Shown here one piece after another: positions 33,348-48,265 of a stretch of 64,000 bases of DNA. The DNA lies in the NCBI RefSeq assembly GCF_965641715.1, contig NZ_OZ282453.1. One strand, written 5' to 3'. The position numbers and the translations under genes were made by a program. This stretch comes from Escherichia coli (lineage in GTDB: Bacteria > Pseudomonadota > Gammaproteobacteria > Enterobacterales > Enterobacteriaceae). The notes under the pieces were generated by a model, which saw only the letters and a list, made by a program, of their open reading frames with translations, made no database searches and was not told the origin of the DNA. Positions within the stretch are counted from its first letter, which is position 1, and each line of letters begins with the position of its first letter.

Positions 33348-34070
33348 TCAGTTTGCAGATGCAGTGGGTCTGATGGTAATTTCGGTTGTATCAACGCTTT
33401 CGGGAGATTCAATAATATGCCTTACCGCACGGGCAATATCCGCAGGTTGAAGTGCAACAGAACGGTAGGCGTCCATTGCCTTCATGGTTTCCACATGGGT
33501 AATGGTTGAAGCCAGTTCACTTTCGACAACGCCAGGATTTACGCAGGTCACACGGATTTTCGAGCTTTCCTGCCGTAAGCCATCAGAAATAGCCCGTACT
33601 GCAAATTTGGATGCACAATAGACTGCGCCTGTGGGCACAACAGAAAGGGCACCAATAGAACCAAGATTGATTATCTGACCGGAACCCTGTGCTTCCATCA
33701 CCGGAAGTACAGCGCCAATTCCCCACAGTACACCTTTGATATTCACGTCAATAGTGAGCTCCCATTCATCCTGTTTTCCTGCTGCAAGCGGTGAAAGCGG
33801 CATAACGCCCGCATTATTGATAAGAACATCAACTCGCCCCCAGCTATCCAGCGCTACTTGCACGAAATCTGCCATGGACTGTCGGTCTGTGACATCCAAC
33901 TCCCGAGCTTTAGCAATTCCTCCTGCGCGGCAAATTTCGGTTGCAATGGCTTCGATACGCTCAACTCTGCGTGCTCCCAGTAAAGTCTTTGCACCTGTCG
34001 TTCCCAGCTCTCTGGCAATACCTTCCCCAATACCACTTGATGCGCCGGTGATTAATATGACCTTATCCAT
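33348..34070 (-). CDS. Short-chain dehydrogenase/reductase (SDR)
   Basis: TGASSGIG Rossmann motif and catalytic YxxxK (YCASK). Confidence 0.75.
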   Translation of the reverse strand: MDKVILITGASSGIGEGIARELGTTGAKTLLGARRVERIEAIATEICRAGGIAKARELDVTDRQSMADFVQVALDSWGRVDVLINNAGVMPLSPLAAGKQDEWELTIDVNIKGVLWGIGAVLPVMEAQGSGQIINLGSIGALSVVPTGAVYCASKFAVRAISDGLRQESSKIRVTCVNPGVVESELASTITHVETMKAMDAYRSVALQPADIARAVRHIIESPESVDTTEITIRPTASAN

Positions 34071-34168
34071 TACGTTCTCCTTCAAATGTGTTCGGAGAGA
34101 GAATAGAACTTTATGATTGGTTCCAGTATCCTGCTTTCAATGTACTCAGTGGTTAGCGGCATTAAACA

Positions 34169-35068
34169 ATGAAAATCGATCTTAATCTTTTACCCATTTT
34201 TATCGCGGTAGCAGAAGAAAGTAATTTTAGTAAAGCCGCCGCACGACTGGGCGTTACCCGTTCAGCGGTCAGTCAGGGAATAAGACGCCTTGAAGATGCA
34301 TTCGGGACAATGCTTGTAATGCGGACCACGCGCTCAGTTAATTTGACGGAAGCGGGAGAACGGCTGCATAAATCGTTGTCATTACCTTTATCCGGTATTG
34401 AGACAGCGTTCGAAGAGATGGTTTCTGATCATGTACCACGTGGACTTCTCAGAATCGCAGTGACGTCAATAGCTGAAGAATTTCTTTCAGGTCCGCTAAT
34501 CGCTTCGTTTGCAGCAGCCAATCCAGCCGTTACGCTTGATATTGTTGTCACGGATGAGGAATTCGATATCGTGGCCGCAGGTTACGATGCTGGCGTAAGG
34601 CTCGGAGAGGTCATTGAAAAAGACATGATTGCTGTGCCCCTTACCGGCAGTCAGCGTGAAATGGTCGTTGCCTCTCCCTCCTATCTCGCAGCCAACAGCA
34701 CACCTGTTCATCCGCGTGAACTTGTGAATCATAAGTGTATCGGCTGGCGTCAGTCCCCGGAGGTTGCGCCTTATCGCTGGCCATTTGAAGAAAACGGGAG
34801 AGCTTTCGACCTTGCGATTGAACCGCAGATTACGACTAATGATCTGCGTCTGATGTTGAGGCTGGCTCTTGCCGGCGGAGGAATAACAATTGCCACTCAG
34901 GAAACTTTCAGGCCGTATATTGAAAGCGGTAAGCTTGTATCTCTGCTTGATGACTTTCTTCCACAATTTCCGGGCTTCTATCTGTATTTCCCACAGCGTC
35001 GCAATATTGCACCAAAGCTCCGCGCCCTGATTGACCACGTCAAGGAATGGCGGCAGCAATTGGCTTAA
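34169..35068 (+). CDS. LysR-family transcriptional regulator
   Basis: 299 aa; HTH FSKAAARLGVTRSAVSQGIR; divergent from the SDR gene. Confidence 0.75.
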   Translation: MKIDLNLLPIFIAVAEESNFSKAAARLGVTRSAVSQGIRRLEDAFGTMLVMRTTRSVNLTEAGERLHKSLSLPLSGIETAFEEMVSDHVPRGLLRIAVTSIAEEFLSGPLIASFAAANPAVTLDIVVTDEEFDIVAAGYDAGVRLGEVIEKDMIAVPLTGSQREMVVASPSYLAANSTPVHPRELVNHKCIGWRQSPEVAPYRWPFEENGRAFDLAIEPQITTNDLRLMLRLALAGGGITIATQETFRPYIESGKLVSLLDDFLPQFPGFYLYFPQRRNIAPKLRALIDHVKEWRQQLA

Positions 35069-35193
35069 ATGTCTGCACCTGCATTGCCTGATGTCAGAAC
35101 AGTATTTTGATTAATTGCCAGGGTTACAATGGCATAAATACGGCACAGGAGGAAACGTGGTGTATTTAAATATGGGGTAACTACTTGATTTAA

Positions 35194-35211
35194 ATGGTGC
35201 CGATAATAGGA
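35194..35211. repeat. attL: 18-bp direct repeat (atggtgccgataatagga) identical to the thrW 3' end at 46821-46838
   Basis: Exact match read directly; marks the island boundary distal to the integrase. Confidence 0.7.
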
Positions 35212-35391
35212 ATAAAATAAAACAATAACATACTGAAAAATATACAAAAAAGAAACACACCGTTAAGTAATGCCCCCGAAAATGCCCCCATAATAGATGC
35301 CGCAGTAAGTCGACTTGTCCCAAGGACTGGTAAGTAATGTCAATAGCGGGAACAAAGAGACATTACTTACCGAGAATGGAATCCATTTAGG

Positions 35392-36621
35392 TTATGCTGG
35401 CCAATCCCACTGCTGATAGGCAGAGAATAGGCGCGTGAGCTCAGCAGGCGCAAGAATATCAACAATATTAGCTCTGTAGCTATGCGATTTACCTAATGGA
35501 ACATTTTCGAAATGATTAGCTTGATAAGGATTAAAATCGTGAAGCTCACCTAATGTTGAGATATCGGTATTAATAGTTTTAAGCCAAGAAACAAGAATTA
35601 CTTTTGCCCCTGTTCTCTGTATGTAAGCTCTTGCCGATTCAAAACTATAGCCTCGAGTTGTTATATCATCTATAAGAAGTACTGTTTTACCAGGGCCTAA
35701 AGGTGGTTTTTTATAGGTAGTTCTAGGATTTCTGTGTGGCTGAGAATTAAGACAAATTGTATTAAGTTGATTGCAATGGTCAATTGCAACTCCCTCATTT
35801 CTTGCTTTTTGAGATTTTTTGGAAGTCGTATGCCTTAAAATAAGATCTGGGATATACGTCTTGCGAAAACATTTTCCAAATATTGAAATCGCTTCATCCA
35901 TGATATTATTCCCATATCCTTGCTTATGCCCTGGATAAACACTAACATAATTAATCATCTTATGAATGCCACTAAAATAGAGACTGGATATTAAGGCACT
36001 CGTCCAAAATTCAGGATGGCCTAATCCATGTTTAGCAGCAGCACGAGCATCTTCAGAGTAAAGAGTATACTCTTCCTTCATGGTGCTGAAAGGAGCAAGT
36101 GCATAGAAATTAAAATCACCATCGTGAATTTCATGACACCAAAGATGCTCTCTTAAACAGAAGGTATCTATAAATCTAGCAATATCTTTAGGGGTTGAAA
36201 ACTCGAAACCATAATCTGTTTTGTCTGCCCACCATGTAGCTCTTAAAAAGAGCAACTCACCATTAACTGCTGTTTGCATGTCGTTTATCGAAGCACCAAT
36301 GTACAAAGTTTCTGTACTTTCCCAACCCATCAAATCAAGGACATATTTTGTAGCATCCGCAGTTGGCTTCCCTGGAATGCTCTTATCTTTCGCTCGACAA
36401 AGATATTTAAATTCTCCCCAATGCTTTTGTAACACATCCTCTAAAGGGGTTCTTTCATCTCCGACAACCCAACCCCTGTTAGTGAATACAACAAACTCGA
36501 TCTTTTTAGTTCTGAAATATCTAATTAATTTATCTACCTCTGCAAAGATTTCGCTATCGATCTTTCCCTTAGGCACAAGAATATCTTCAACACTAAGAAT
36601 CACACCCTTAATTTTGCTCAT
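35392..36621 (-). CDS. Protein with C-terminal phosphoribosyltransferase (PRTase) domain; ShosT-like candidate effector
   Basis: 409 aa; PRPP-binding motif VLLIDDITTRGYSF near the C-terminus; N-terminal ~250 aa unassigned; AT-rich; 11 bp downstream of the DprA-like gene. Confidence 0.65.
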   Translation of the reverse strand: MSKIKGVILSVEDILVPKGKIDSEIFAEVDKLIRYFRTKKIEFVVFTNRGWVVGDERTPLEDVLQKHWGEFKYLCRAKDKSIPGKPTADATKYVLDLMGWESTETLYIGASINDMQTAVNGELLFLRATWWADKTDYGFEFSTPKDIARFIDTFCLREHLWCHEIHDGDFNFYALAPFSTMKEEYTLYSEDARAAAKHGLGHPEFWTSALISSLYFSGIHKMINYVSVYPGHKQGYGNNIMDEAISIFGKCFRKTYIPDLILRHTTSKKSQKARNEGVAIDHCNQLNTICLNSQPHRNPRTTYKKPPLGPGKTVLLIDDITTRGYSFESARAYIQRTGAKVILVSWLKTINTDISTLGELHDFNPYQANHFENVPLGKSHSYRANIVDILAPAELTRLFSAYQQWDWPA

Positions 36622-36631
36622 TTCATCTTCC

Positions 36632-37612
36632 TTAGAGATCTAAGCTCTGCTGTATCGGCTGTGCTTTTAAATCATGATTATTATTCAAAATATAATTACT
36701 CATCTCATTCAATTCAAAAGGCATTAAAAAAGATAAAGAATTTCTATTTTCTTCAGCAAACTTCAATTCTGGTCTACTTTCATACGTAGTAGGAAGATAT
36801 GGACTCGCTATCTTTTTTGCATACTTAAAAGCATAATCAACAGTATGTGATGTTCCACTTTTAATATTCCATTCGACTGGTATTAGTGAATCACATAAAG
36901 CAGCCTGGATTCTGTTACGCCTTACAAAATTTTCTGCGCTATATGTTTGTTCAGGTAGATACTCGGTAACGATAGCCCCACCATTAGAAACTATTGCTCG
37001 ATATAACTCTTTAGAACCTTTCGGATACTCGACAAAAATCCCATTACCCAATACCGCAATAGTTGGAATGCCATATCTCAGCGATTCATAATGACAACAT
37101 TGATCTATTCCTGTCGCCAAACCACTGACTGTTGAAACATCTTTAGAATATAGAGAAGAAACAATCAGTTTTACTAGAAAAATACCATCATCCGTTGGCT
37201 TTCGTGTCCCCACAATTGCAACAGATTTCTTATTAAGAAGTTCATAATTACCATGAACAAAAATCCAAAATGGCGGATCGCTTATGTTCTTTAATGATTG
37301 AGGAAATGTAGCCTGATCATAAAAGGTGAGCACAATACCATTTTTATTGAGTTCACGAGCTCTCTCCAGTCCCTTAGACCAAAGGTCTTGTTGAAATGTT
37401 TCCCAAGATATATTTTTAGGCAAGGAAACTCTTAGATATCCTGCCAAGGCATCAGCTGTATTATCTTTTAATATATTCTTAAATCCAATTTTGGATTGAT
37501 AGATTTTGCGAAGCGTCCAGTAACCAACCCCCTTTAGACAAGTTAAGGCAAGAAACGCAATAATTTCATTTTTCCAAAACTCTCTAACTTCAGTGTAATC
37601 TTTATATTCCAT
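36632..37612 (-). CDS. DprA/Smf-like (SLOG-superfamily Rossmann) protein; ShosA-like candidate
   Basis: DprA signature region (VAIVGTRKPT ... SGLATGIDQCCH ... TIAVLGNGIFVEYP ... FVRRNRIQAAL); start set at the internal Met MEYKDY. Confidence 0.65.
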   Translation of the reverse strand: MEYKDYTEVREFWKNEIIAFLALTCLKGVGYWTLRKIYQSKIGFKNILKDNTADALAGYLRVSLPKNISWETFQQDLWSKGLERARELNKNGIVLTFYDQATFPQSLKNISDPPFWIFVHGNYELLNKKSVAIVGTRKPTDDGIFLVKLIVSSLYSKDVSTVSGLATGIDQCCHYESLRYGIPTIAVLGNGIFVEYPKGSKELYRAIVSNGGAIVTEYLPEQTYSAENFVRRNRIQAALCDSLIPVEWNIKSGTSHTVDYAFKYAKKIASPYLPTTYESRPELKFAEENRNSLSFLMPFELNEMSNYILNNNHDLKAQPIQQSLDL

Positions 37613-38027
37613 TTTACGTTTGCCTTTTAGATTACAACCCGTACTCAACACAAAAAATTTAGAAAATTGTTGCCAAAAGCATATTATAAATAGCATCTTA
37701 CCGCAGATTTGTGAAGCAACAACATCCCTAGGAGAAACCTTAACCTAGCGGGACAACTTACTGACCAATCCTCAGCTAGCTCATTGAATTGCCCCCATAT
37801 CGCACAGCCCCGCACGCCTGCCCGCTTCGCTTAACAGACTGGTTTTCATGCACCTCATAAATCGTCTCAGAAGCCACCAAACAAGGGCTTTCTCGTCAAA
37901 AATGGTGCATAAGACTCATGCGTTTTCATGCGCCATAGACATGCACTCATGCGCTCTCAGGCCAGCCAGGGAAAAGGTGTTAAAAATCCCGGTACTCGAC
38001 CGGGATTACGTAGGCGTTTTTTTCTAA

Positions 38028-38300
38028 TCAGACAGGAATCTGCTGACGGCTTGACAGTTTTGACGCGGAGCCATAGCGATTGAGCGTTTGCTGTTGTTTT
38101 ACCGGGGTTTGTGATTTGTCTGGTTCCTGTTCATTGCGCCGGGGTTTCATGATTATCTTATCCACACTCTCCAGTGCCGTAAATGTGCAGGAACATTCCA
38201 GATTCTGGCACTGATACCACGAGCGTTTAACTGACGGAGCTTCATAGGCTGCTGTTCTGGCGTGTGCAACTGTACCGCATTCCGGACATTTAAGTGCCAT
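38028..38300 (-). CDS. Ogr/Delta-family zinc-finger late-gene activator
   Basis: CPECG...(H)...YQCQNLECSCTF zinc-finger spacing as in P2 Ogr / P4 Delta. Confidence 0.75.
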   Translation of the reverse strand: MALKCPECGTVAHARTAAYEAPSVKRSWYQCQNLECSCTFTALESVDKIIMKPRRNEQEPDKSQTPVKQQQTLNRYGSASKLSSRQQIPV

Positions 38301-38305
38301 TAATA

Positions 38306-38857
38306 TCACTCCTGTATATCGTTAATGTCATTCAGGCGTTGCTGAAAACGCAGATGTTGTGCCGGGGTGTAAGAGCCCTGGCAATCACGAATCATACTGG
38401 GGTCAGGCATCAAACCGGATTCATCCAGGATCTCACGATAATCCCCGGCAATTTCAGGCGGTGTTATTGCCAGCTGGCGAACCAGAGCACTGCGTAATAT
38501 ACGGGACGCAACGTCAACCCCTCCGCGCCCCTTCAGGAACGGAGCCAGTGCAGATGTCAGGGCTGCCCCATTCGCCTGCATAAAATTGCTGAGAGCGGCT
38601 TCTGTGCAGGCCTCCATCAGTAAATGCTGCGAGTAAATGCATTCGCGCGCAGCACAGTTAATTTGCCATTTCAGCACATCCAGACGTTCCCGCAGGAATT
38701 CGAGCTGTCGGGCATAATCTGCTGGTTTTTCTGTGGCAGCGAGGAGAGATGTTATCTGTTGTTCAACGGCTTTTCGGCTCTCACTATGTCTGGCCCACAG
38801 AATACGGGCATTCCGAAAACTGGTAAGTACCTGGTCAGGTGTGCCTCGGGCCGTCAT
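38306..38857 (-). CDS. Psu-like (polarity suppression / capsid decoration) protein
   Basis: 183 aa; resembles my recollection of P4 Psu (LKWQINCAAR ... FMQANGAALTSALAPFL); overlaps neighbours by 4 bp. Confidence 0.55.
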   Translation of the reverse strand: MTARGTPDQVLTSFRNARILWARHSESRKAVEQQITSLLAATEKPADYARQLEFLRERLDVLKWQINCAARECIYSQHLLMEACTEAALSNFMQANGAALTSALAPFLKGRGGVDVASRILRSALVRQLAITPPEIAGDYREILDESGLMPDPSMIRDCQGSYTPAQHLRFQQRLNDINDIQE

Positions 38858-39597
38858 ACTGCTTTCTCCTTCTCAGCAAGTTCCTGACGAACCTTTATTT
38901 TATGCATAGCTGCTGGAGAGAGTTGATTACTGAAATCCAGACGCGCCGCATAATCCGGGGCAACTCCCGCCAGTTTAAACACCGGGTCCTGTTCAGGCAT
39001 CGCATCGTTAGCCAGAGCCGGTCTGGTGATATGTTTATGAATAAAGTCTTTCAGCACTGTGTCCGGGTCATTAACTGAATTCACCACACCCACAACGGCA
39101 CTGGCTTCCCGGCCCATTGTGGATTTAAGCAGGCTCAGCGTCTGAATAAGCGCTTTTCCATGCGACTGCATAAAATCCTCCCAGATTTGTTTTGCGCGAA
39201 TATCCACAAGAATGTTATGCGCGTGGATATACTTTCCGGCTAATTCCGCAGCTTTCTGCGGCAAAAGTGCATTTTCGCTTTCCTGAGCCGCCAGCAGCTC
39301 ATCAAAATCCTCAAGCGTTTCTCGTCCCAGCGCAATTTCCGTGCGCAGTTTTTTCATTTCCTTTGAGACCACGCCCTGACTTTCACGAAACAGCGTGCGC
39401 CACTCCTCATTCAGTGTATTCGTCGTGGATTCCATTTCAGCGCGACGCTGGCGGATTGTCGCAATATTATCCGCTGCCGCTTTCTGCTGACGACGTGCTT
39501 CAAGCCATGCGTTTCTGGCTGTGTTCATGGTTTCCAGTGCCCGCTGCGTTACAGCCGGAAAAGTGGAAAGGTTGTTATTCACTGCGGTGTTGTTCAT
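38854..39597 (-). CDS. Sid-like (capsid size determination) protein candidate
   Basis: 247 aa; Psu/Sid-fold-like segment; position upstream of psu-like. Confidence 0.45.
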   Translation of the reverse strand: MNNTAVNNNLSTFPAVTQRALETMNTARNAWLEARRQQKAAADNIATIRQRRAEMESTTNTLNEEWRTLFRESQGVVSKEMKKLRTEIALGRETLEDFDELLAAQESENALLPQKAAELAGKYIHAHNILVDIRAKQIWEDFMQSHGKALIQTLSLLKSTMGREASAVVGVVNSVNDPDTVLKDFIHKHITRPALANDAMPEQDPVFKLAGVAPDYAARLDFSNQLSPAAMHKIKVRQELAEKEKAV

Positions 39598-39776
39598 GAC
39601 TTCTCCTGTCGGGTTGGTTCGTTACGTCAATTGTGTCGTGGCTGACACAAGCACACTATCGGTGCTCAGTGTGTGGTGGCTGGCACAACGGGCGCTTGCG
39701 GTTATTCAGACGTGGCTATGAAAGCCAGCCAGATAAAAATGCCCACTGTTTCAGTCTGCTTTATGTCCCTGATGCG

Positions 39777-39964
39777 GTGGAACAGGTGAAACATGTGTTA
39801 CAGCTTTGTTTTATAAATCATTTATATACACTGCACCGGTGGAACATCGCGGGTAACAAGGTGGAACAGCGGATTGGCTGGCGTTACATCTGTTCCACCT
39901 CACTATTTCAGAAGGTGGAACAGGTTCAGCCCCTGTAAAATACGGTTGTTCCACCTGTTTCACC
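39777..39964. repeat. Iteron cluster: at least 8 copies of GGTGGAACA / TGTTCCACC (and GGTGAAACA variants) in both orientations; candidate replication region
   Basis: Copies at 39777, 39785, 39838, 39860, 39891, 39914, 39947, 39956; similar to the P4 type-I iteron TGTTCACC; immediately 3' of the alpha gene. Confidence 0.55.
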
Positions 39965-39998
39965 TGTTACCCTTAATAAATAAGACTCACGCAAAGCC

Positions 39999-42671
39999 TT
40001 AACCCGGCACCTCGCTGTTGAAGACATAGAGCCTGCGGGGATTCATCTCTGGCGGGCGAATGGTTGTCTGGAGTTTGCCATCAGTGGAGGGCAGCAGGTA
40101 TCCACGATCTGCGCACAGACGCGCCACCTTGCGCGGGTCAAATCCCCTGCAGATTTCTTTCCAGCCGGACGGCATGACATAAAACGTAGTGACAGCTTCC
40201 GTGCCCTGCGCGGTACTGCCTTTCTCCACCCTGCGCCAGCCCACCATATTGGCGGGGCGGTTGCGCTCGTCATACCAGTCTGCAAAGCGGCTGTACTGAT
40301 TCGCGGTAAAGAAACTGCGAACCTGCTCCAGTGCGGCGATATCTTCCTGATTGGCGGTGTGCCCGCGCTCTTTCAGCCATGCGTTCAGGCAGACGCGGGT
40401 TGCCCGCAATGCTTCACCCTCAGGCCAGCCGGTGATACCCTGACGGGTTGCCAGTTCACCTGCCATCGCCACCAGTGCAAAGCGGTTCACAGCCCGGCCC
40501 ACCTGATTGCCTGCATCTTTCGGAGTCAGGGCGGCAGCATATTCCTTCATCAGCGATTTTGCCTGTGCCGTTAGTCCGTTAAGATCAGCGGTCAGTGCTT
40601 TCAGCCACTCCCGGAACGGCGAACCGTAGTAGCAGGACGTGGCCCATTCAAGATGCTCTGCCAGAGCCTTGCCGCTGTCGAAGCCGTGCAGCTCCTCAAA
40701 AACGCCAAACTTCCCGGAATCGCTGGGGATCTGGATCATCCTGACTTCCATCCCGGCAAAAGTACGCTCACCGGCCTTTGCCGCATGTTCGGTCAGAGAT
40801 AACTCGCCAGTTGAAAAGAACAACAGGCGCCACTGCTTACGGGTACGCAGTTCACCGTCCGTACCGGCACGACCCTTGCCCTGACCGTTTGCCAGCATGT
40901 AGGCGATATTGCCTGCCTCGCGTCCGTCAACTTCCCGGATCTCATCAAGCATCATGGCGGCATCGTTGCGGCGGCTGGCACATCCCTCCAGCGCGTTGCC
41001 GGTGGCCCGCCATGTCTGCCAGTAGTCAGGCCCGCCGCAGACGGAGGTTGCCGCTTTCATGGTGGTGGTCTTACCGTCTGTCGATTCCCCTTTGAGGTGG
41101 TAGCCGCCGCCGTCCATACCAACCAGCCGTAACAGTGGTGCAGCAAAGGCCAGGCTGACAGCAAATGCCACGCGGGAGTTGCCGGTACAGTAGCGGGATA
41201 CGTTCTCCCGCCATTCCTCTGTTGTGCCCGACACGCGGAAATCACGCCCCTGCACGGAAGTGGTCTGGAGAATGACACCCTCTGCACCTTCACCGCTGAC
41301 CTCATCCTGCAGGACGTAAACCTGACCATGCCAGCCAGTACGGCTGACGCAGGTCACGCGACGTTCCGGTTTACACAGTGAGATATATTCCATCAGGCGT
41401 GCGCGTGCCTCACCGGTGGTGCTGATATAAGACAGCCCGTTAACAAGCAGTACCCGGCGCAGTTCCTCACCACTGCCGCTCAGCATTTCCATCGGCATCG
41501 CCCAGCGGCGACGCTCACCCCACGTATCTTCCCATTCCAGCAGTCGTCCGAAGTTACCGCCATCGGCATCGCAGGTGATTGCCGTCACGCGCAGCGGGCT
41601 GCATATTTTGACGTTCTGGATCTCCGTCTCACCGTTGCGCTGTACCTGCTTTTCATACCAGAGATATTCCTGGGTAAGACGGAACCCGTGCGGCAGTTGC
41701 GTGCGGCCTTCCCCGCACAGTACCAGACCGTTGCGAAAGGCTTCACGGGCACGGGTAATACCGTGCTCCCGATGAAAGTCATTCCAGTCAGCCTTAATCT
41801 CTCCTGGTGGCAGCGTCATCCAGCCGCCAACAGCTTTTGCCGCCCGTTCAGCAAAGGCTCTGCCGGGATTCTCCCCCCCGTCCTGAAAATCGTTATCACC
41901 GGCGATGATAATTTTTACCTCAGGCCAGCGTGCCCGCAGCGACTGCGCCACATTGGGCAGGTTGCCCGCAGATATGGCAGCCACTACGCATCCGGCAGTG
42001 AGCTGGCTTACCGTCAGCGCCGTAGCGTAACCTTCGGTAATCACCACCTGTACCGGTGGTTCAGACGGTAACGGGCTGAGCGACACAAACGCGCCTTTCA
42101 TCGTGCTGCCGGGCAGTATGCTTTTTTCACCCGTCGGGGCGATAAGCTGTGCACCGGTCACGGCTCCGGTGTTGGTCGTGAGTGGTAACAGCAGGGAACC
42201 AGCAGGAAAATCCTTACCGCTGATATGCTGCACGCTTCCGGTCAGAGAGGCCGGGTATCCGGCGAACCCTTTTCCTGCCAGATAGGCACTTTCTCCCGTG
42301 TGGCTCTCTTTCATCAGCGTCGCCACGGTAAGGCTCATGTCGCGTTTAGGGGCTTTTTGTCTGGCAGGCTTAACAGGCAGTTCCTGCACATCCGGCACAT
42401 TAAGCACCTGCGCCACCTGCTGCGCAGCCTTTCTGACGTTGTAGCCGGTTACGAGCTTAACCAGATCCAGACCGTCACCATTGCCACACTGGCTGCAGAT
42501 CCACGTCCCGCGCCCGTCAAGGTCATCGAGGCGAAAACGATCCTTGCCCCCACATTTCGGGCAGGGACCGTGCCTGCCGTTTTCAGGTACATCAATACGC
42601 AGCATATGCAGAATAACGGGCCATTTCCCCCGCGCGGCGGCTGAAATCTGCGTAACCGTCTGTATTGTCAT
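39999..42671 (-). CDS. P4 alpha-like primase/helicase
   Basis: 890 aa; N-terminal zinc-binding CPKCGG...CSQCG; Walker A GESTDGKTT. Confidence 0.8.
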   Translation of the reverse strand: MTIQTVTQISAAARGKWPVILHMLRIDVPENGRHGPCPKCGGKDRFRLDDLDGRGTWICSQCGNGDGLDLVKLVTGYNVRKAAQQVAQVLNVPDVQELPVKPARQKAPKRDMSLTVATLMKESHTGESAYLAGKGFAGYPASLTGSVQHISGKDFPAGSLLLPLTTNTGAVTGAQLIAPTGEKSILPGSTMKGAFVSLSPLPSEPPVQVVITEGYATALTVSQLTAGCVVAAISAGNLPNVAQSLRARWPEVKIIIAGDNDFQDGGENPGRAFAERAAKAVGGWMTLPPGEIKADWNDFHREHGITRAREAFRNGLVLCGEGRTQLPHGFRLTQEYLWYEKQVQRNGETEIQNVKICSPLRVTAITCDADGGNFGRLLEWEDTWGERRRWAMPMEMLSGSGEELRRVLLVNGLSYISTTGEARARLMEYISLCKPERRVTCVSRTGWHGQVYVLQDEVSGEGAEGVILQTTSVQGRDFRVSGTTEEWRENVSRYCTGNSRVAFAVSLAFAAPLLRLVGMDGGGYHLKGESTDGKTTTMKAATSVCGGPDYWQTWRATGNALEGCASRRNDAAMMLDEIREVDGREAGNIAYMLANGQGKGRAGTDGELRTRKQWRLLFFSTGELSLTEHAAKAGERTFAGMEVRMIQIPSDSGKFGVFEELHGFDSGKALAEHLEWATSCYYGSPFREWLKALTADLNGLTAQAKSLMKEYAAALTPKDAGNQVGRAVNRFALVAMAGELATRQGITGWPEGEALRATRVCLNAWLKERGHTANQEDIAALEQVRSFFTANQYSRFADWYDERNRPANMVGWRRVEKGSTAQGTEAVTTFYVMPSGWKEICRGFDPRKVARLCADRGYLLPSTDGKLQTTIRPPEMNPRRLYVFNSEVPG

Positions 42672-43051
42672 ACTTCCCCCTGATACAACGTCACACCAGT
42701 ACTGCAGAAGTCATCAAAGGTCGCCGGAAGCGTGCGGTACATCTCCGCCATTACTTCACAGCCGCGCGCGGTCAGTACCGGCGGCGCGGTCAGCAGTGAC
42801 GGCTCCAGCATGTCAGTCAGCAGTGCCAGCGCGGCAGCGGCGCCCTGTGCTTCGCCGTACTCGTTAATCAGTGCGCACTCGATATGCAGCGCAATGGCCA
42901 TTTCAATACGCTCCACCGTCAGGCTGTGCGGACCATACTGATCACTGCCAGTTTCGTTCAGCATTTTCTGCCGCCATGCTGAAGCAATAGCCCGCCGGTA
43001 AAGCGCGGTTGTCATTTCTGCCGGGAAAATGGAAACCTGCGGCTGGTTCAT
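42668..43051 (-). CDS. Hypothetical protein, satellite left operon
   Basis: 127-aa ORF; 4-bp overlap with the alpha start and the upstream ORF. Confidence 0.4.
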   Translation of the reverse strand: MNQPQVSIFPAEMTTALYRRAIASAWRQKMLNETGSDQYGPHSLTVERIEMAIALHIECALINEYGEAQGAAAALALLTDMLEPSLLTAPPVLTARGCEVMAEMYRTLPATFDDFCSTGVTLYQGEV

Positions 43052-43332
43052 CTGGCACCTCCTTCAATCAGTGCACAGCTGTGCGCAATATCCGTCAAAT
43101 CTGCCCGCAGGTACTCCATCAGCGCGGCGACACCATGCGCACAGCCAGCGTCCAGTGCTCCGGCCTGAGACGGGTATTCAGAAAAGAGAAGCTGGAGCAT
43201 GTCGCAGGCATTTCTTGCGCGGGTCAGCTTTCCGAAACTGTCCTCTGACAACCCATAGGCAAAAGCACCGGTATTGTGTTTTTCAGGCAAAGTGTGGCCC
43301 TGAGCACCGTTGTGCCCGTTTGAAATATTCAT
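43048..43332 (-). CDS. Hypothetical protein, satellite left operon (epsilon-position)
   Basis: 94-aa ORF in an overlapping gene train. Confidence 0.4.
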   Translation of the reverse strand: MNISNGHNGAQGHTLPEKHNTGAFAYGLSEDSFGKLTRARNACDMLQLLFSEYPSQAGALDAGCAHGVAALMEYLRADLTDIAHSCALIEGGAR

Positions 43333-43363
43333 CGTGGATTACTCCGTTTTCAGCGGTATTTTG

Positions 43364-43723
43364 TCAGAGAAACTTTGAATAGTGACCGTCGTCAGGCTCA
43401 GCAGAACGCCGTATGCTACGCTCCCGCCAGCGGATAAATAGCACAGACGGATGCAGTGTCAGCGGGCCGGAACCACTACCGCCTGCAGGAGCTGGTGCAG
43501 GCTTAAAGAGCGGTACATCAAACAGGCGCGTATACCGCTGTTCAAACCATGCCAGAGGGCAGGAAGAAAGCTGGTTGTCGCTGTCATGACGTATCAGCAC
43601 TTCACAGCTGAATTCAGGATTAACCAGCGCCACAGAGGGCGAGGCTTCAATTAATCGGATAATCGTGACCGTCCAGCCACGTTCATGCTGCCAGCGTTCG
43701 CCGGGGTGCGGATAATTACGCAT
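43364..43723 (-). CDS. Hypothetical protein, satellite left operon
   Basis: 119 aa from the internal Met MRNYPHPGERW; ATG overlaps the stop of the upstream small ORF. Confidence 0.4.
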   Translation of the reverse strand: MRNYPHPGERWQHERGWTVTIIRLIEASPSVALVNPEFSCEVLIRHDSDNQLSSCPLAWFEQRYTRLFDVPLFKPAPAPAGGSGSGPLTLHPSVLFIRWRERSIRRSAEPDDGHYSKFL

Positions 43724-43892
43724 GTTCACCTCCGCAGGGAATGCGCCCGGCAAAGCTCAGTACATAATCCGGGGCAAGTCTTCGCCGCGCTGACCGCTCG
43801 TTATCTGCGGTGATCCTTAACATCACAGGACGGGCATTGCGTTGACTGCGGTTGATCGCCGCAAATAACCAGGTACACTTCTGTTTAGCCAT
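43716..43892 (-). CDS. Small basic protein (58 aa), first gene of the left operon
   Basis: ATG with AAGAGG Shine-Dalgarno 8 nt upstream; MAKQKCTWLFAAINRSQRNARPVMLRI...; not in the ORF track. Confidence 0.3.
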   Translation of the reverse strand: MAKQKCTWLFAAINRSQRNARPVMLRITADNERSARRRLAPDYVLSFAGRIPCGGEHA

Positions 43893-43983
43893 CTTCGTTA
43901 CCTCTTATAACGGTTGGTTAAATGCCCGATTTGTGTTCCCGCACAATCGGGCATTGCTTTTACAAGCGAACTATACTTACAAT

Positions 43984-44023
43984 GGTAATTACCATGTAGT
44001 CATCATATTCCAGGGTAATTACC
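43984..44023. promoter_or_regulatory. Two copies of the perfect 10-bp palindrome GGTAATTACC (43984-43993 and 44014-44023); candidate operators
   Basis: Read directly; between the divergent left operon and the RHH ORF. Confidence 0.4.
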
Positions 44024-44197
44024 ATGTCAACACCACAAGAGAAACGTTCCCCACCATTCCAAATGCGTCTTACCGACGATTTTAGGTTGCAACTCGAAAA
44101 AGAAATGCGCAAAGATGGAGATAGCGCGTTGGCAACTTGGATTAAAAGAATTTTACGTAAAGAACTACAATCACGCGGGATTGACCCTAAAGGTTAA
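44024..44197 (+). CDS. Ribbon-helix-helix (Arc/MetJ-like) candidate repressor, 57 aa
   Basis: MSTPQEKRSPPFQMRLTDDFRLQLEKEMRKDGDSALATWIKRILRKELQSRGIDPKG; beta-strand plus two helices pattern; not in the ORF track. Confidence 0.45.
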   Translation: MSTPQEKRSPPFQMRLTDDFRLQLEKEMRKDGDSALATWIKRILRKELQSRGIDPKG

Positions 44198-44229
44198 TCA
44201 GTTAAATATTACTAACTATCAATTAAGGC

Positions 44230-44520
44230 TTAGGGAGTAGGTGATAATCTATTCCCTTTATTAATTGCTCTTGCCTTATTTCTCATCCCCTCAAACTGTT
44301 GACCTGAGTTTTCTTCAAACCCATCTCGCCACTTATAATAATCAGCAGCGCGCCATCGGGACATCCGACCTATTTTTATAGGTTTTGGAAAGCGATTCAG
44401 AGAAATCAATCGATAAATCCATTTGTCACTTAATAAACAATCGGAAGTAATAAACTTCATATCGATCAGAGAATCCATTGAAGGTCGTTGCAAAGTAGTA
44501 TTATCATGTTTAGATAACAT
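44230..44520 (-). CDS. alpA: AlpA-family prophage regulatory protein
   Basis: Motif IYRLISLNRFPKPIKIGRMSRWRAADYYKW typical of AlpA; true start may be an internal Met. Confidence 0.65.
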   Translation of the reverse strand: MLSKHDNTTLQRPSMDSLIDMKFITSDCLLSDKWIYRLISLNRFPKPIKIGRMSRWRAADYYKWRDGFEENSGQQFEGMRNKARAINKGNRLSPTP

Positions 44521-44645
44521 TCATCATTCTCCGTTTATCTAAGTCTATTGGCTTCAACACGGAAAATTAAAACATAGGTTATAAATGAGAAAAATGTGAC
44601 TAATGAAAAAAATCCAAAATCATTAGTCACAATAATTGTTAACAT

Positions 44646-45470
44646 TTAGTTAAACTTAATGTTTTTCATGCAACTACGTAGCAAGCTAACAACAGTATCA
44701 TAGCTCAAAGGTGGTTCTCCGGTCTTAGGCCAGAACTCACTGGCATGTTGAAAAAGATAATCAGCTATCGCTGCTGGACTCTCTCTTCTTAGCCTCATAT
44801 CACGATGATAGAGCGAAATAATAGCCATGAGTATTTCAGTTCGAGGAACAGCATGTTTTTGTTTTTGCGCCTCAGATTGTGATTTATATTTATTGGCGTT
44901 TTTTATCCGTTTTTGTTCGCATAAGACTATATCAATGAATTTTTGAATCTGTACCTTTGTAATCCACAAAACCTCAAAAAGATAATAATTTTCTTTTTCA
45001 TCATAATTTACATAAAGAATTACCTTACAATTTATATTAGGCGTACCCGCCAGTAGAAAATGAATAGGCCAGGAATCCGGTTGCCCCTCATGCTTAACTA
45101 ACAGATCTTTATATTCATAATCAACAGCCCATAAACCGGATATAAAGCATCGAATAAAACCATTTTTATCAATTAAATTATTTTCATCAGGGATTCTTAT
45201 AGAGCTTAAGTCTGACAACATAATATTGCCATTTCTATCTCGTGGTAAATATTTCAGATTAGATAAGAACTCATCCAGTTGACCATCAATCTTCAAACCA
45301 CATGAAACATCATACTCATCATCATGGAATTCCATGCATAGCTCTACATCTCGTTCTCTGGCAAACCAGAGTATATCCTTTTCACTACAACCAATTTTTT
45401 CTGAAGCTTCATCCAACTGGTAGTAATCTCTGAGCAGAGAATCAGTATTATTAATTTTTAAAATATTCAT
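44646..45470 (-). CDS. Hypothetical protein (274 aa), AT-rich island cargo
   Basis: Long ORF; start overlaps the integrase stop by 4 bp; no motif recognised. Confidence 0.5.
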   Translation of the reverse strand: MNILKINNTDSLLRDYYQLDEASEKIGCSEKDILWFARERDVELCMEFHDDEYDVSCGLKIDGQLDEFLSNLKYLPRDRNGNIMLSDLSSIRIPDENNLIDKNGFIRCFISGLWAVDYEYKDLLVKHEGQPDSWPIHFLLAGTPNINCKVILYVNYDEKENYYLFEVLWITKVQIQKFIDIVLCEQKRIKNANKYKSQSEAQKQKHAVPRTEILMAIISLYHRDMRLRRESPAAIADYLFQHASEFWPKTGEPPLSYDTVVSLLRSCMKNIKFN

Positions 45471-46657
45471 TTATGAGTACCAATTAGCTCAGATAAATAA
45501 TTAGCATACCATTGCATCATTTCTCTTCTCCCTTCGAGATATTGGGCATGGTTATAAATTCCACGAATAGAGTTTTTGTCCGAATGAGCAAGCTGGGTTT
45601 CAATCCAAGCGCTGTTAAATCCTTTCTCATGTAGAATTGTACTCATCGTATGCCTGAAACCATGTCCCGTAACACGCCCTGCATATCCAATACGTTTAAA
45701 CACCTGATTGATGCTTGCTTCACTCATAAATTTGCTAGGATCGTTGCGTCCAGGGAACATCAGCGGGTAGTTCCCAGTTAGTTCTTTCAAACTTTTGAGA
45801 TGGGATAATGCTTGTTTTGGTAACGGGACAATATGGCTCCTACGCATTTTCATACGTTCTTTTGGGATCTCCCACACCGCATTATCAAAATCCACCTCTC
45901 GCCACTCACCTGCTCGTAGTTCTCCAGTTCGTAGACCTGTCAGGATAAGTAAATGCGCCCCCAACAATACAATTGGACTTCCTGAATAAGAATTAAGGGC
46001 ATTAAAGAACTCCGGTAGTTCGTTGGCTTTGAGGAATGGATAGTGGACTGCTTCATGTCCTTGCATCGCACTGGCAAGATCCGGTGCCGGATTGTAGATT
46101 GCCCTACCCGTTACGATGGCATAGCGAAAAACTTCACCGCATCGCTGACGGACTTTCTTCGCTTTCTCCATAGCGCCTCGAGCTTCTATCAACCTCAGAA
46201 CTTCAAGCAGTTCAAGGGGCTGAATATCAGCTATAGGTCTGTGCCCAATATGCGGAAAAATGTCTTTCTCAAATGCCTCAATGATGTCGGAAGCATAGCC
46301 CTCAGACCATTTGGATGATTTCATTTTGTGCCACTCTAACGCCACTTCTCTGAATGGGTTAAGTGTCTCAATCGCTGCGTTTAAAGCCTGCTTTTTGGCT
46401 TTTTTGACTTCGCCGGGATCTTCACCTGCTGCGAGTAGTTTCTTTGCGTCTTCTCGTTTTTGTCTGGCATCAGCAAGTGTGACTGTTGGATAAACACCAA
46501 AGGACAATCGTTTCTCTTTACCAGCAAAACGGTATTTCATACGCCAGTAACGCGAGCCATTAGGTTCGACCTGAAGGTATAGGCCACCTCCATCAAACAG
46601 CTTATAGCTCTTCTCTTTTCCTTTCGCAGCTTCAACCTTGCGGGCATTCAGCATCAT
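45467..46657 (-). CDS. int: Tyrosine integrase (P4-type), tRNA-adjacent
   Basis: N-terminal SYKLFDGGGLYLQVEPNGSRYWRMKYRF; C-terminal catalytic HxxR...Y (HGFRHT ... GIYNHAQYLEGR); ORF extends to 46726. Confidence 0.85.
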   Translation of the reverse strand: MMLNARKVEAAKGKEKSYKLFDGGGLYLQVEPNGSRYWRMKYRFAGKEKRLSFGVYPTVTLADARQKREDAKKLLAAGEDPGEVKKAKKQALNAAIETLNPFREVALEWHKMKSSKWSEGYASDIIEAFEKDIFPHIGHRPIADIQPLELLEVLRLIEARGAMEKAKKVRQRCGEVFRYAIVTGRAIYNPAPDLASAMQGHEAVHYPFLKANELPEFFNALNSYSGSPIVLLGAHLLILTGLRTGELRAGEWREVDFDNAVWEIPKERMKMRRSHIVPLPKQALSHLKSLKELTGNYPLMFPGRNDPSKFMSEASINQVFKRIGYAGRVTGHGFRHTMSTILHEKGFNSAWIETQLAHSDKNSIRGIYNHAQYLEGRREMMQWYANYLSELIGTHK

Positions 46658-46821
46658 TGGGGGCACATTTCCTAGACCGAACAGAACATGCCCCTGATTG
46701 TGCCCCCAACCGCGTGTTGATTTCAAGAGACAAGGGTTGACCTCAAACGTATGAAAACAACGTAATATATATGTTTTTAAATGATTTTGTTGATGTGGGT
46801 TGACTTGGGAAAACTAGGTGA

Positions 46822-46897
46822 TGGTGCCGATAATAGGAGTCGAACCTACGACCTTCGCATTACGAATGCGCTGCTCTACCAACTGAGCTATATCGGC
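46822..46897 (-). tRNA. thrW: tRNA-Thr (anticodon CGU)
   Basis: 76-nt cloverleaf GCCGATATAGCTCAGTTGGTAGAGCAGCGCATTCGTAATGCGAAGGTCGTAGGTTCGACTCCTATTATCGGCACCA on the minus strand; 3' end duplicated at attL. Confidence 0.9.
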
Positions 46898-47011
46898 CCT
46901 GAAAGGACATGTTCACGAACGTGAATCACGGTGGACAAGGGTAAAACTAACCGGGCGATGCGTCAATGGCCTTGTGAATCAAATGGCTACTTTTGCATCA
47001 CCCGGTTTTAT

Positions 47012-48265
47012 TTACGCACGAATGGTGTAATCACCAATGCCGATCCACTTGTAAGTGGTCAGTGCTTCCAGCCCCATTGGGCCACGCGCGTGGAGTTTTT
47101 GTGTGCTTACCGCCACTTCCGCACCCAGTCCAAACTGGCCGCCGTCGGTAAAACGCGTAGAGGCGTTAACGTAAACAGCGGACGAATCCACTTCGTTAAC
47201 AAAACGCTGGGCGTTGCGCATATCGCGGGTCAGGATCGCATCGGAGTGTTGTGTGCCGTGTTCACGAATATGGGCGATGGCATCGTCAAGATCGCTGACG
47301 ATTTTGACGTTCAAATCTAATGACAGAAACTCATCGTCATACTCTTCGGCTTTAACCGCCACCACCTTCGCGGGGCCTGCCTGCAACTGTGTCAGCGCAG
47401 CTGCATCTGCGTGTACTGTCACGCCGCTTTCCGCCATTTGTTTGCTTAATGCGGGCAGGAAGCTATCGGCGATGTTTTTATTCACCAGCAACGTTTCTAC
47501 CGTATTACATGTGCTCGGACGCTGAGTTTTCGCGTTGACGATCACTTTTAATGCTTCAGCGATCTCTGCACTTTCATCAACGTAAATATGGCATACGCCT
47601 ATACCACCTGTGATCACCGGGATCGTCGACTGTTCGCGGCACAGTTTATGCAAACCAGCCCCGCCGCGCGGGATCAGCATGTCGATGTATTTATCCATAC
47701 GCAGCATTTCACTGACCAGCGCACGGTCAGGATTATCAATCGCCTGCACGGCACCCGCCGGTAAGCCACAGGATTTCAGGGCGTCCTGAATCACCGCCAC
47801 CGTTGCAGCGTTAGTGCGACAGGTTTCTTTGCCACCGCGCAGGATCACCGCGTTACCTGTTTTCAGGCACAGCGAAGCGACATCAACCGTCACGTTCGGG
47901 CGCGCTTCATAAATCACGCCAATAACCCCCAGCGGTACGCGACGACGCTCAAGACGCAGGCCGCTGTCCAGTACGCCGCCATCGATTACCTGCCCCACCG
48001 GATCGGCGAGGTTGCACACCTGGCGCACATCATCGGCAATGCCTTTCAGCCGTGCGGGCGTCAGTGCCAGACGGTCAAGCATCGCTTCGCTAAGGCCATT
48101 GGCACGCGCGTCAGCAACATCCTGGGCGTTAGCGTTGAGGATGATTTCGCTTTGTGCTTCCAGTTCATCGGCGATTTTTTCCAGCACGCGATTTTTTTCG
48201 CGGCTGGAGAGTTGCGCTAATTTATACGAGGCTTGCTTCGCGGCAATGCCCATTTGTTCCAGCAT
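47012..48265 (-). CDS. proA: Gamma-glutamyl phosphate reductase
   Basis: 417 aa, full-length match to ProA by recollection. Confidence 0.95.

What the first reader, a model, noticed from the sequence alone, without database searches (positions are those of the whole stretch)
44646..45470. AT-rich 274-aa ORF translationally coupled to the integrase gene
The ORF start overlaps the integrase stop by 4 bp, which suggests co-transcription with int. It has markedly low GC compared with int, and I recognise no domain. Accessory genes in this position of tRNA-inserted islands are often immunity or exclusion functions, but that is speculative here.
Basis: inference. Interest (0 to 1): 0.5.

Follow-up and report, generated by a model that had tools for sequence, protein, structure and literature searches.

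The report
Uncharacterised allele-swapping gene in phage-satellite integrase operon
The AT-rich ORF is a real, conserved gene of unknown function that always sits between the integrase and the AlpA regulator in one lineage of enterobacterial phage satellites, and whose very divergent alleles are swapped between otherwise near-identical elements, which suggests a phage-facing specificity role that nobody has tested.

Summary
A 274-aa minus-strand ORF (44646-45470) starts with an ATGA overlap on the integrase stop codon. Its GC is 34% against 45% for int.

The host element is an 11.6-kb P4-like satellite at tRNA-Thr (thrW), bounded by 18-bp att repeats, with ShosTA defence cargo at its far end.

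The ORF ("X") matches no Pfam, NCBIfam, PHROG, PADLOC or PDB-sequence entry. It is under purifying selection (dN/dS 0.05-0.16).

X belongs to a small family found only in Enterobacterales. In all 15 informative distinct contexts it lies as int-X-alpA, in P4-like and in PICI-like satellites. Low GC (33-37%) and a hairpin after its stop codon are kept in all nine loci where I measured them.

X is therefore a fixed backbone gene, not variable cargo. Its alleles are nevertheless extremely divergent: 28% identity beside 97%-identical Int, and a 1.2-kb allele replacement between two nearly identical E. coli satellites.

IS1 has knocked X out at least three separate times without loss of the element. 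The prototypes P4 and EcCICFT073 lack X.

The AlphaFold model shows a winged-helix-like N-domain, a variable middle domain and a conserved C-terminal helical domain, with no whole-protein match in the PDB.

Best reading (about 0.35): a phage-facing immunity or interference factor made during lysogeny. An Stl-like helper sensor is the main rival. No function has been demonstrated.

The parts
44646..45470 (-). Gene X: 274-aa ORF, AT-rich (34.3% GC), uncharacterised family. The model has a winged-helix-like N-domain (aa 16-61), a variable alpha/beta middle domain (65-171), a long basic helix (172-196) and a conserved C-terminal helical domain (200-268).
45467..45470 (-). ATGA overlap: the X start codon ATG (45470-45468) and the int stop codon TGA (45469-45467).
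   Evidence: The junction gap is -8 to +6 nt in the window, eight related loci and three further loci.
45467..46657 (-). P4-type tyrosine integrase, 396 aa using the RefSeq start. The open frame extends to a TTG at 46726.
46697..46793 (-). Two sigma-70-like promoter matches (9 of 12 positions each) upstream of int. These are candidates for the promoter of the int-X unit.
   Evidence: consensus matches only
44583..44631 (-). Perfect 12-bp inverted repeat TGTGACTAATGA-N13-TCATTAGTCACA followed by TTTTTCTCATTT. This is an intrinsic-terminator-like hairpin 14 nt after the X stop codon.
   Evidence: RNA dG -16.9 kcal/mol, z -4.8. A hairpin is present at this position in all nine loci, with differing sequence. 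The motif has no other copies in the island.
44527..44566 (-). Second inverted repeat (TTTTCCGT ... ACGGAGAA). It encloses a -35-like TTGAAG and overlaps the Shine-Dalgarno sequence of alpA. It could be an operator or an RNA hairpin that hides the Shine-Dalgarno sequence.
44230..44520 (-). AlpA/Vis-like small helix-turn-helix (HTH) regulator or excisionase.
46822..46897 (-). tRNA-Thr (CGT), thrW. attL is the 18-bp repeat ATGGTGCCGATAATAGGA at 46821-46838.
35194..35211 (.). attR copy of the 18-bp repeat. The satellite therefore spans 35194-46838 (11.6 kb).

Best explanation
X is a trans-acting, phage-facing specificity protein of one lineage of enterobacterial AlpA-type satellites.

It is made in the quiescent (integrated) state from the integrase mRNA. 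Ribosomes finishing int start X at the overlapping ATGA, and the transcript ends at the hairpin terminator before alpA.

Its poorly conserved N-terminal and middle parts recognise a variable partner. The most likely partner is a protein of an incoming or induced phage, either helper or competitor.

Its conserved C-terminal helical domain, with conserved basic residues, acts on a conserved target. That target could be nucleic acid, or the conserved Int/AlpA or host machinery.

The net effect is immunity, exclusion or interference, rather than a step needed for the satellite's own integration, excision or replication.

Shown: the gene anatomy, conservation, purifying selection, synteny, allele replacement, dispensability and predicted fold.

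Inferred: expression from the int promoter, translational coupling, partner recognition and any effect on phage.
For: - The int-X junction gap is -8 to +6 nt in the window and eleven related loci, and a hairpin (mostly with a T-run) follows X in all nine loci examined. No coding-strand promoter was found at the junction.
- X is a real gene under purifying selection, with dN/dS 0.05-0.16.
- Alleles are ancient, divergent types that recombination shuffles. Window versus E. coli BCE049: Int 97%, AlpA core 83-85%, alpha 67%, X 28%.
- Two E. coli satellites are 95-100% identical in their flanks but only 53-85% identical over a 1.2-kb tract covering X (X 58% aa), while the 60 nt upstream of alpA are identical.
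- The middle domain is the most variable (13-17% identity between types) and the C-terminal domain the most conserved (28-45%).
- X is optional at a larger scale. EcCICFT073 has no gene between int and alpA, and X has no match in 50,697 phage records or in the BFVD viral structure library.
- IS1 interrupts X at three different sites in four complete genomes, and the element stays integrated in each.
- X has no detectable catalytic motif that is conserved across the family.
Against: - X has no PADLOC or PHROG hit and no recognisable effector domain.
- These satellites keep their variable defence cargo elsewhere, after delta: ShosTA, Kiwa, AIPR, reverse transcriptase. X never varies in presence or position within the lineage, which fits a life-cycle gene better than a defence gene.
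- Other backbone genes (delta, DUF5375, small ORFs) diverge about as fast as X between distant elements, so part of the divergence is ordinary.
- IS1 prefers AT-rich targets (my own knowledge), so the insertions may say little about cost.
- I have no expression, binding or phenotype data.
Confidence: 0.35

Rival explanations
1. X is an Stl-like induction switch. It holds the satellite quiescent by acting on alpA expression, through DNA or RNA binding at the X-alpA intergenic region. It is released when its variable domain binds a helper-phage protein. X would then be the helper sensor that has not been identified for Gram-negative satellites.
For: - X lies directly upstream of alpA and next to int, as stl does in SaPIs.
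- Its allelic diversity resembles that of Stl types.
- An inverted repeat encloses the -35-like element and the Shine-Dalgarno sequence of alpA in every type.
- The literature states that a global repressor in Gram-negative PICIs is unclear and that the inducer of alpA is unknown (PMC6092414).
Against: - X is co-directional with alpA and separated from it by a terminator. It is not divergently transcribed.
- Two X alleles at 58% identity share an identical alpA promoter region.
- The N-domain net charge ranges from -10 to +5 among types, unlike a conserved DNA-binding module.
- IS1 knock-outs of X remain stably integrated.
- EcCICFT073 is helper-inducible without any X gene.
- An Arc-like repressor gene with palindromic operators at the early promoter already looks like the lysogeny switch.
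- X has no profile similarity to AlpA.
Confidence: 0.2
2. X is an integrase cofactor. It is made in step with Int and helps or directs recombination at att, for example as an architectural or directionality factor, or as an inhibitor of excision.
For: - The tight translational junction with int persists over very large divergence.
- The N-domain has an excisionase/MerR-like fold.
- The conserved C-terminal domain could contact the well-conserved Int.
Against: - Nearly identical Int proteins (95-97%) are paired with X alleles of 24-33% identity, and int is swapped independently of X, with a breakpoint about 30 nt before the int stop.
- Related P4-type integrases work without X in EcCICFT073.
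- In Klebsiella elements the int-X gap is 92 nt.
- The allele replacement is not explained by this model.
Confidence: 0.1
3. X has no function of its own that matters. It is a tolerated AT-rich filler, for instance a tract silenced by H-NS whose DNA properties rather than its protein are selected.
For: - Low GC (33-37%) is kept in every allele type, whatever the host GC.
- X is frequently hit by IS1.
- No function can be assigned to it.
Against: - dN/dS is 0.05-0.16.
- Length, start and domain order are conserved down to 21-25% identity.
- The structure model is confident, with pLDDT 85.5.
- There are 184 structural relatives in AFDB50.
Confidence: 0.05

Closest known systems
SaPI/PICI master repressor Stl (Rpr) of Gram-positive satellites
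   Same: A gene of about 250-280 aa next to int in a phage satellite. Its sequence is highly divergent between otherwise related elements. The logic of a variable domain facing phage proteins would fit X.
   Different: Stl is transcribed divergently from the operon it represses, and its loss induces the island. X is co-directional with alpA and followed by a terminator, its knock-outs stay integrated, and I found no sequence or whole-fold similarity to any solved structure.
Defence systems in the P4 psu-int hotspot (Rousset et al. 2022, PMC9122126)
   Same: Carried by P4-like satellites, presumably expressed in the integrated state and involved in inter-virus competition.
   Different: Hotspot content varies by presence or absence of unrelated systems at the cos-proximal end. 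In this element that slot holds ShosTA. X is at the opposite end, is always present in its lineage, varies by allele rather than by gene content, and matches no PADLOC model.
AlpA / P4 Vis / excisionase-MerR type winged-helix proteins
   Different: X has no Pfam hit to HTH_17, MerR or Phage_AlpA and no profile-profile similarity to the neighbouring AlpA family. It is four times longer, and the net charge of its N-domain is not conserved.
Mosaic immunity regions of temperate phages (my own knowledge of lambdoid phages)
   Same: Discrete, ancient allele types under purifying selection are exchanged as cassettes between otherwise similar genomes.
   Different: In those regions the repressor and its operators co-vary. 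Here the alpA promoter region does not change with the X allele in the one clean pair I examined.

Membership tests
P4-like satellite (the element that carries X) | Core gene set: int, alpA, alpha primase-helicase, psu, delta (also sid and epsilon) | tested here: met
   int; AlpA-like; alpha with TOPRIM and DUF927, psu and an ogr/Delta-like gene in the RefSeq annotation of a 99.9%-identical copy. sid and epsilon were not identified with confidence.
P4-like satellite (the element that carries X) | Canonical order int-hotspot-psu-delta-sid-alpA-epsilon-alpha (PMC8628076) | tested here: not met
   The order here is int-X-alpA-...-alpha-(247 aa)-psu-delta-cargo, all on one strand. This is a rare architecture.
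P4-like satellite (the element that carries X) | Small size (about 10-12 kb), integrated at a tRNA gene with att direct repeats | tested here: met
   18-bp repeat at 46821-46838 and 35194-35211, giving an 11.6-kb element at tRNA-Thr.
Known anti-phage defence protein (PADLOC-DB 2.0) | Match to a model of a known or candidate defence protein | tested here: not met
   0 families at E <= 0.1 for X. The neighbouring cargo does match ShosA and ShosT.
Known anti-phage defence protein (functional definition) | Reduces phage plating or burst when expressed | not testable with these tools
   Needs a phage challenge experiment.
MerR/excisionase-type winged-helix DNA-binding domain | Sequence-profile match (Pfam MerR, HTH_17, Phage_AlpA) | tested here: not met
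   No Pfam hit for X or for any of the 22 family members. hhalign against the AlpA alignment gives probability 0.1%.
MerR/excisionase-type winged-helix DNA-binding domain | Fold: beta-alpha-alpha-beta-beta winged helix | tested here: inconclusive
MerR/excisionase-type winged-helix DNA-binding domain | Conserved basic DNA-contact surface | tested here: not met
   N-domain net charge is -9 in the window allele and ranges from -10 to +5 across types.
Stl-like satellite master repressor | Adjacent to int and highly divergent between related islands | tested here: met
Stl-like satellite master repressor | Divergent transcription from the repressed operon, with shared operator region | tested here: not met
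   X is on the same strand as alpA with a terminator-like hairpin between them. The promoter region does not co-vary with the X allele.
Stl-like satellite master repressor | Loss of the gene induces the island | tested here: inconclusive
   Natural IS1 knock-outs at three sites keep the element integrated. Whether those satellites are otherwise functional is unknown.

The most novel reading that the evidence does not exclude
X is the missing helper-phage sensor of Gram-negative AlpA-type satellites. Its variable N-terminal and middle region would bind a helper protein, and its conserved C-terminal domain would then release or trigger alpA expression. Its divergent allele types would set which helper phages can induce which satellite. 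In function this would be an analogue of SaPI Stl, built on an unrelated fold.
Probability: 0.15. Interest if true: 0.8.

Novelty: new variant of a known kind. Interest (0 to 1): 0.45.

Why it matters
P4-like and PICI-like satellites are found in a large share of Enterobacterales genomes and shape phage-host dynamics. Several of their backbone genes still have no known role.

This gene family is confined to such satellites. It is fixed between the two best-known control genes, int and alpA. It also shows cassette-like allele replacement, the signature expected of a determinant that decides which phages a satellite reacts to or blocks.

If X is an exclusion factor, it adds a defence class that current catalogues miss, because it varies by allele rather than by gene content. 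If X is a helper sensor, it addresses how Gram-negative satellites detect their helpers, which Fillol-Salom et al. 2018 state is unknown. Either way, allele-swap experiments could test the question directly.

Tried and rejected
- **Sequence-profile searches** of X and of a 22-member alignment found nothing usable in Pfam, NCBIfam, PHROGs, PADLOC or PDB sequences. There were only chance Fab and calmodulin hits at E > 0.04.
- **Homology to YfjH**, the gene between intA and alpA in K-12 CP4-57, is rejected: hhalign probability 0.6% and YfjH is on the opposite strand.
- **X as an AlpA paralogue** is rejected.
- **The 12-bp perfect inverted repeat after X as a type-specific operator** is judged unlikely. 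Across types the structure is kept but not the sequence, G-U-compatible changes occur, a T-run follows, and the island has no further copies. It is a terminator-like hairpin.
- **A P4 cI/C4-type immunity RNA** was not found by Rfam in 34000-47500.
- **A conserved catalytic motif** (nuclease-like) in the middle domain was sought; no residue there is conserved across the family.
- **Literature searches** for the protein accession, and for a described gene between int and alpA, found nothing.
- **Wider locus surveys** gave little. The pattern scan of GTDB genomes returned one locus and the IMG/VR scan four close relatives. The divergent alignment could not be used for pattern scanning.

Full report
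**What is there**

The window is E. coli chromosome around proBA and thrW, the tRNA-Thr (CGT) gene at 46822-46897 on the minus strand. An 18-bp direct repeat, ATGGTGCCGATAATAGGA, lies at the tRNA 3' end (46821-46838) and again at 35194-35211. It bounds an 11.6-kb island.

Reading the minus strand, the island carries these genes:
- a P4-type tyrosine integrase (45467-46657);
- the ORF in question, called X here (44646-45470);
- an AlpA/Vis-like small helix-turn-helix gene (44230-44520);
- a 57-aa Arc-like gene on the other strand (44024-44197);
- an Icd-like gene, two small ORFs and a DUF5375 gene;
- an alpha-type primase (39999-42671);
- a 247-aa ORF, then psu and a delta/ogr-like gene;
- two cargo genes that match ShosA (E 3e-90) and ShosT (E 3e-94) in PADLOC.

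This is a P4-like satellite, but its gene order is not the canonical one described in PMC8628076.

**The observation**

X starts at the ATG at 45470-45468. The int frame ends with TGA at 45469-45467, so the two genes overlap by ATGA.

X is 34.3% GC (GC3 28%). For comparison, int is 45.3%, the alpha primase 59% and the whole window 49.6%.

A 274-codon open frame at that composition has a chance probability of about 1e-10. The 25 nt upstream of the ATG contain no Shine-Dalgarno-like sequence. This fits re-initiation by ribosomes terminating int, although that is an inference.

X has no match in Pfam, NCBIfam, PHROGs or PADLOC and no match to PDB sequences.

**X is a real gene**

The same allele type is present in 65 of 5,426 complete E. 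coli genomes. It is always on the chromosome and always annotated 'hypothetical protein'.

Among E. coli copies, and against a Citrobacter copy, dN/dS is 0.05-0.16. The neighbouring int gives 0.05-0.06.

Full-length homologues at 53-60% identity occur in Pantoea, Erwinia, Citrobacter and Enterobacter. An exhaustive HMMER scan of 1.84 billion cluster representatives found only 23 proteins at E <= 0.001, reaching down to 21-31% identity. This is a small family.

A profile search and a search seeded with a distant member added Klebsiella and Pectobacterium branches; members from Serratia and Salmonella also turned up. None has a name or a Pfam domain.

**Context**

I recovered 15 distinct contexts that were informative. 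In every one the order is int, X, then a small AlpA-like gene 106-143 nt downstream.

The elements are of several kinds:
- P4-like satellites with an alpha/DUF927 primase, delta, and often psu;
- relatives that also carry a P2-type capsid gene (L015, L018, L031);
- PICI-like elements with a D5-type primase, one of which has capsid, protease and portal genes (L010, L033).

Variable cargo always sits after delta or at the far end: Kiwa, AIPR, SMC/AAA proteins, a reverse transcriptase, P4 cII, and ShosTA here. X is therefore a fixed backbone gene of this lineage, not hotspot cargo.

The int-X gap is -8 to +6 nt in the window and the eleven other loci where I measured it. It is 92 nt in the Klebsiella branch, and one locus (L030) has a truncated int.

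X is 33.5-37.3% GC in all nine loci measured, while int stays at 44-48% and host GC ranges up to 54%. Low GC is thus a trait of the family.

**The end of the unit**

Fourteen nucleotides after the X stop codon lies a perfect 12-bp inverted repeat (44595-44631) followed by TTTTTCTCATTT. As RNA it folds at -16.9 kcal/mol, with z = -4.8 against shuffled sequences.

A hairpin occupies this position in all nine loci. The sequences differ, some changes are G-U-compatible, and most hairpins are followed by a T-run. The island holds no other copies of the motif.

I read this as an intrinsic terminator that closes an int-X transcription unit before alpA. No sigma-70-like site was found on the coding strand at the int-X junction, and two candidate promoters lie upstream of int.

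A second inverted repeat (44527-44566) encloses a -35-like hexamer and the Shine-Dalgarno sequence of alpA. An analogous repeat exists in every allele type, but its role is open.

**Allele pattern**

This was the most informative result.
- **Window versus E. coli BCE049:** Int is 97% identical, the AlpA core 83-85%, alpha 67%, but X only 28%. DNA homology stops about 30 nt before the int stop codon and resumes inside alpA.
- **BCE049 versus DX6:** these two satellites are 95-100% identical at the nucleotide level on both sides. A 1.2-kb tract covering the int 3' end, X and the hairpin is only 53-85% identical, and X is 58% identical as protein. The 60 nt upstream of alpA are identical.
- **Independent swapping of int:** window versus isolate SY038 gives int dS 0.98 against X dS 0.31.

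X therefore exists as ancient, divergent types, each under purifying selection, that are exchanged as cassettes.

Two cautions apply. Between distant elements, delta, DUF5375 and the small ORFs diverge about as much as X. The BCE049/DX6 pair is the only clean cassette replacement I documented.

**Dispensability**

IS1 interrupts X after roughly codons 15-30, 60 and 190 in four complete genomes. In each, int and alpA are intact and the element is still at thrW.

The prototype PICI EcCICFT073 has a 365-nt gap and no gene between int and alpA. Experiments in PMC6092414 show it is helper-inducible through AlpA.

No phage record matches X. X is therefore not required for Int- and AlpA-dependent biology in general.

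**Structure**

An AlphaFold2 model built from the 22-sequence alignment has mean pLDDT 85.5. It has four parts:
- a beta-alpha-alpha-beta-beta unit (residues 16-61);
- an alpha/beta middle domain (65-171);
- a long basic helix (172-196);
- a helical C-terminal domain (200-268).

Foldseek finds 184 AFDB50 relatives at E <= 0.001. The 50 best listed are 100-375 aa long and come mostly from Enterobacterales and Aeromonas. Nearly all are named 'uncharacterized protein'. BFVD gives nothing.

Conservation is highest in the C-domain and lowest in the middle domain. The nearly invariant C-domain positions are H206, A207, R210, L214, M215, A216, W247, P254 and L255.

The N-domain net charge ranges from -10 to +5 among types, which argues against a conserved DNA-contact role. 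No candidate catalytic residue is conserved across the family.

**Interpretation**

The facts fit a protein with three properties:
- it is produced with Int while the satellite is quiescent;
- it is not needed for the core satellite cycle;
- a variable partner drives its sequence types.

I favour a phage-facing immunity, exclusion or interference role (about 0.35).

The main rival is an Stl-like helper sensor acting on alpA (about 0.2). That model is attractive because the inducer and any repressor of Gram-negative satellites are unknown. Several points weaken it: X is co-directional with alpA and separated by a terminator, the alpA promoter does not co-vary with the X allele, IS1 knock-outs stay integrated, EcCICFT073 lacks X, and an Arc-like gene with two GGTAATTACCATGT palindromes at a strong early promoter looks like the actual switch.

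An Int cofactor (about 0.1) is disfavoured, because near-identical Int proteins pair with 24-33%-identical X alleles. A non-functional filler (about 0.05) is disfavoured by the purifying selection and the conserved fold. The remaining probability goes to functions I have not thought of.

**Verdict**

The 'accessory cargo' framing is wrong, while the 'immunity or exclusion' guess remains possible and gains indirect support. No function has been demonstrated.

The family is undescribed and restricted to satellites, and allele-swap experiments would test its role directly. I rate the interest as moderate.

Noticed in passing
window 35392-37696 (-): The satellite's cargo at the far end is a ShosTA toxin-antitoxin defence pair. 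The DprA-like ShosA is at 36632-37696 (PADLOC E 3e-90) and ShosT at 35392-36621 (E 3e-94). A related DprA+PRTase pair was validated as anti-phage in P2 hotspots (PMC9122126).
   Followed up: partly
window 35194-35211 and 46821-46838: An 18-bp direct repeat, ATGGTGCCGATAATAGGA, overlaps the 3' end of tRNA-Thr and recurs 11.6 kb away. These are the att sites that delimit the satellite.
   Followed up: yes
window 43984-44197: A 57-aa Arc-like gene (44024-44197, + strand; PHROG Arc-like repressor, E 0.002) is preceded by two copies of the palindromic GGTAATTACCATGT (43984-43997 and 44014-44027). These overlap an 11/12 sigma-70 promoter on the minus strand (44030-44002) that faces the icd-alpha operon. 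This is probably the lysogeny switch of this satellite lineage, replacing the P4 cI RNA, which Rfam did not find.
   Followed up: partly
window 38028-46726: The gene order int-X-alpA-...-alpha-(247 aa)-psu-delta-cargo, all on one strand, differs from the canonical P4 order int-hotspot-psu-delta-sid-alpA-epsilon-alpha. Moura de Sousa and Rocha report the canonical order for 77% of the elements that carry all seven P4 core components.
   Followed up: partly
L027, L028, L029 (E. coli NCTC11121, VG12A2, 50EVAW); window equivalent 44646-45470: IS1 is inserted in X at three different positions in complete genomes. Many 'partial' X fragments at contig ends in draft Salmonella and E. coli assemblies suggest this is common. 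The cause could be the AT-rich target, selection against X, or both.
   Followed up: partly
window about 45499 (30 nt before the int stop); L015, L018, L019: There is a recombination breakpoint at the 3' end of int. The thrW-type integrase (87-93% nt identity) is joined to quite different satellite backbones, so the int/att module moves independently of the rest of the element.
   Followed up: partly
window 44527-44566 (-): An inverted repeat, TTTTCCGT ... ACGGAGAA, encloses a -35-like TTGAAG and the Shine-Dalgarno sequence of alpA. A comparable repeat is present upstream of alpA in every X allele type. It may be an operator or an RNA hairpin that hides the Shine-Dalgarno sequence.
   Followed up: no
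window 43887-43958 (+): A weak Rfam match to the SymR antitoxin RNA (31.6 bits against a gathering score of 61; E 0.01) lies between the icd-like gene and the Arc-like gene. It is probably chance.
   Followed up: no
L017 (E. coli PK8277): A 99%-identical integrase is followed directly by an IS5-family element and then by chromosomal ecp genes. The rest of the satellite, including X, has been deleted.
   Followed up: no
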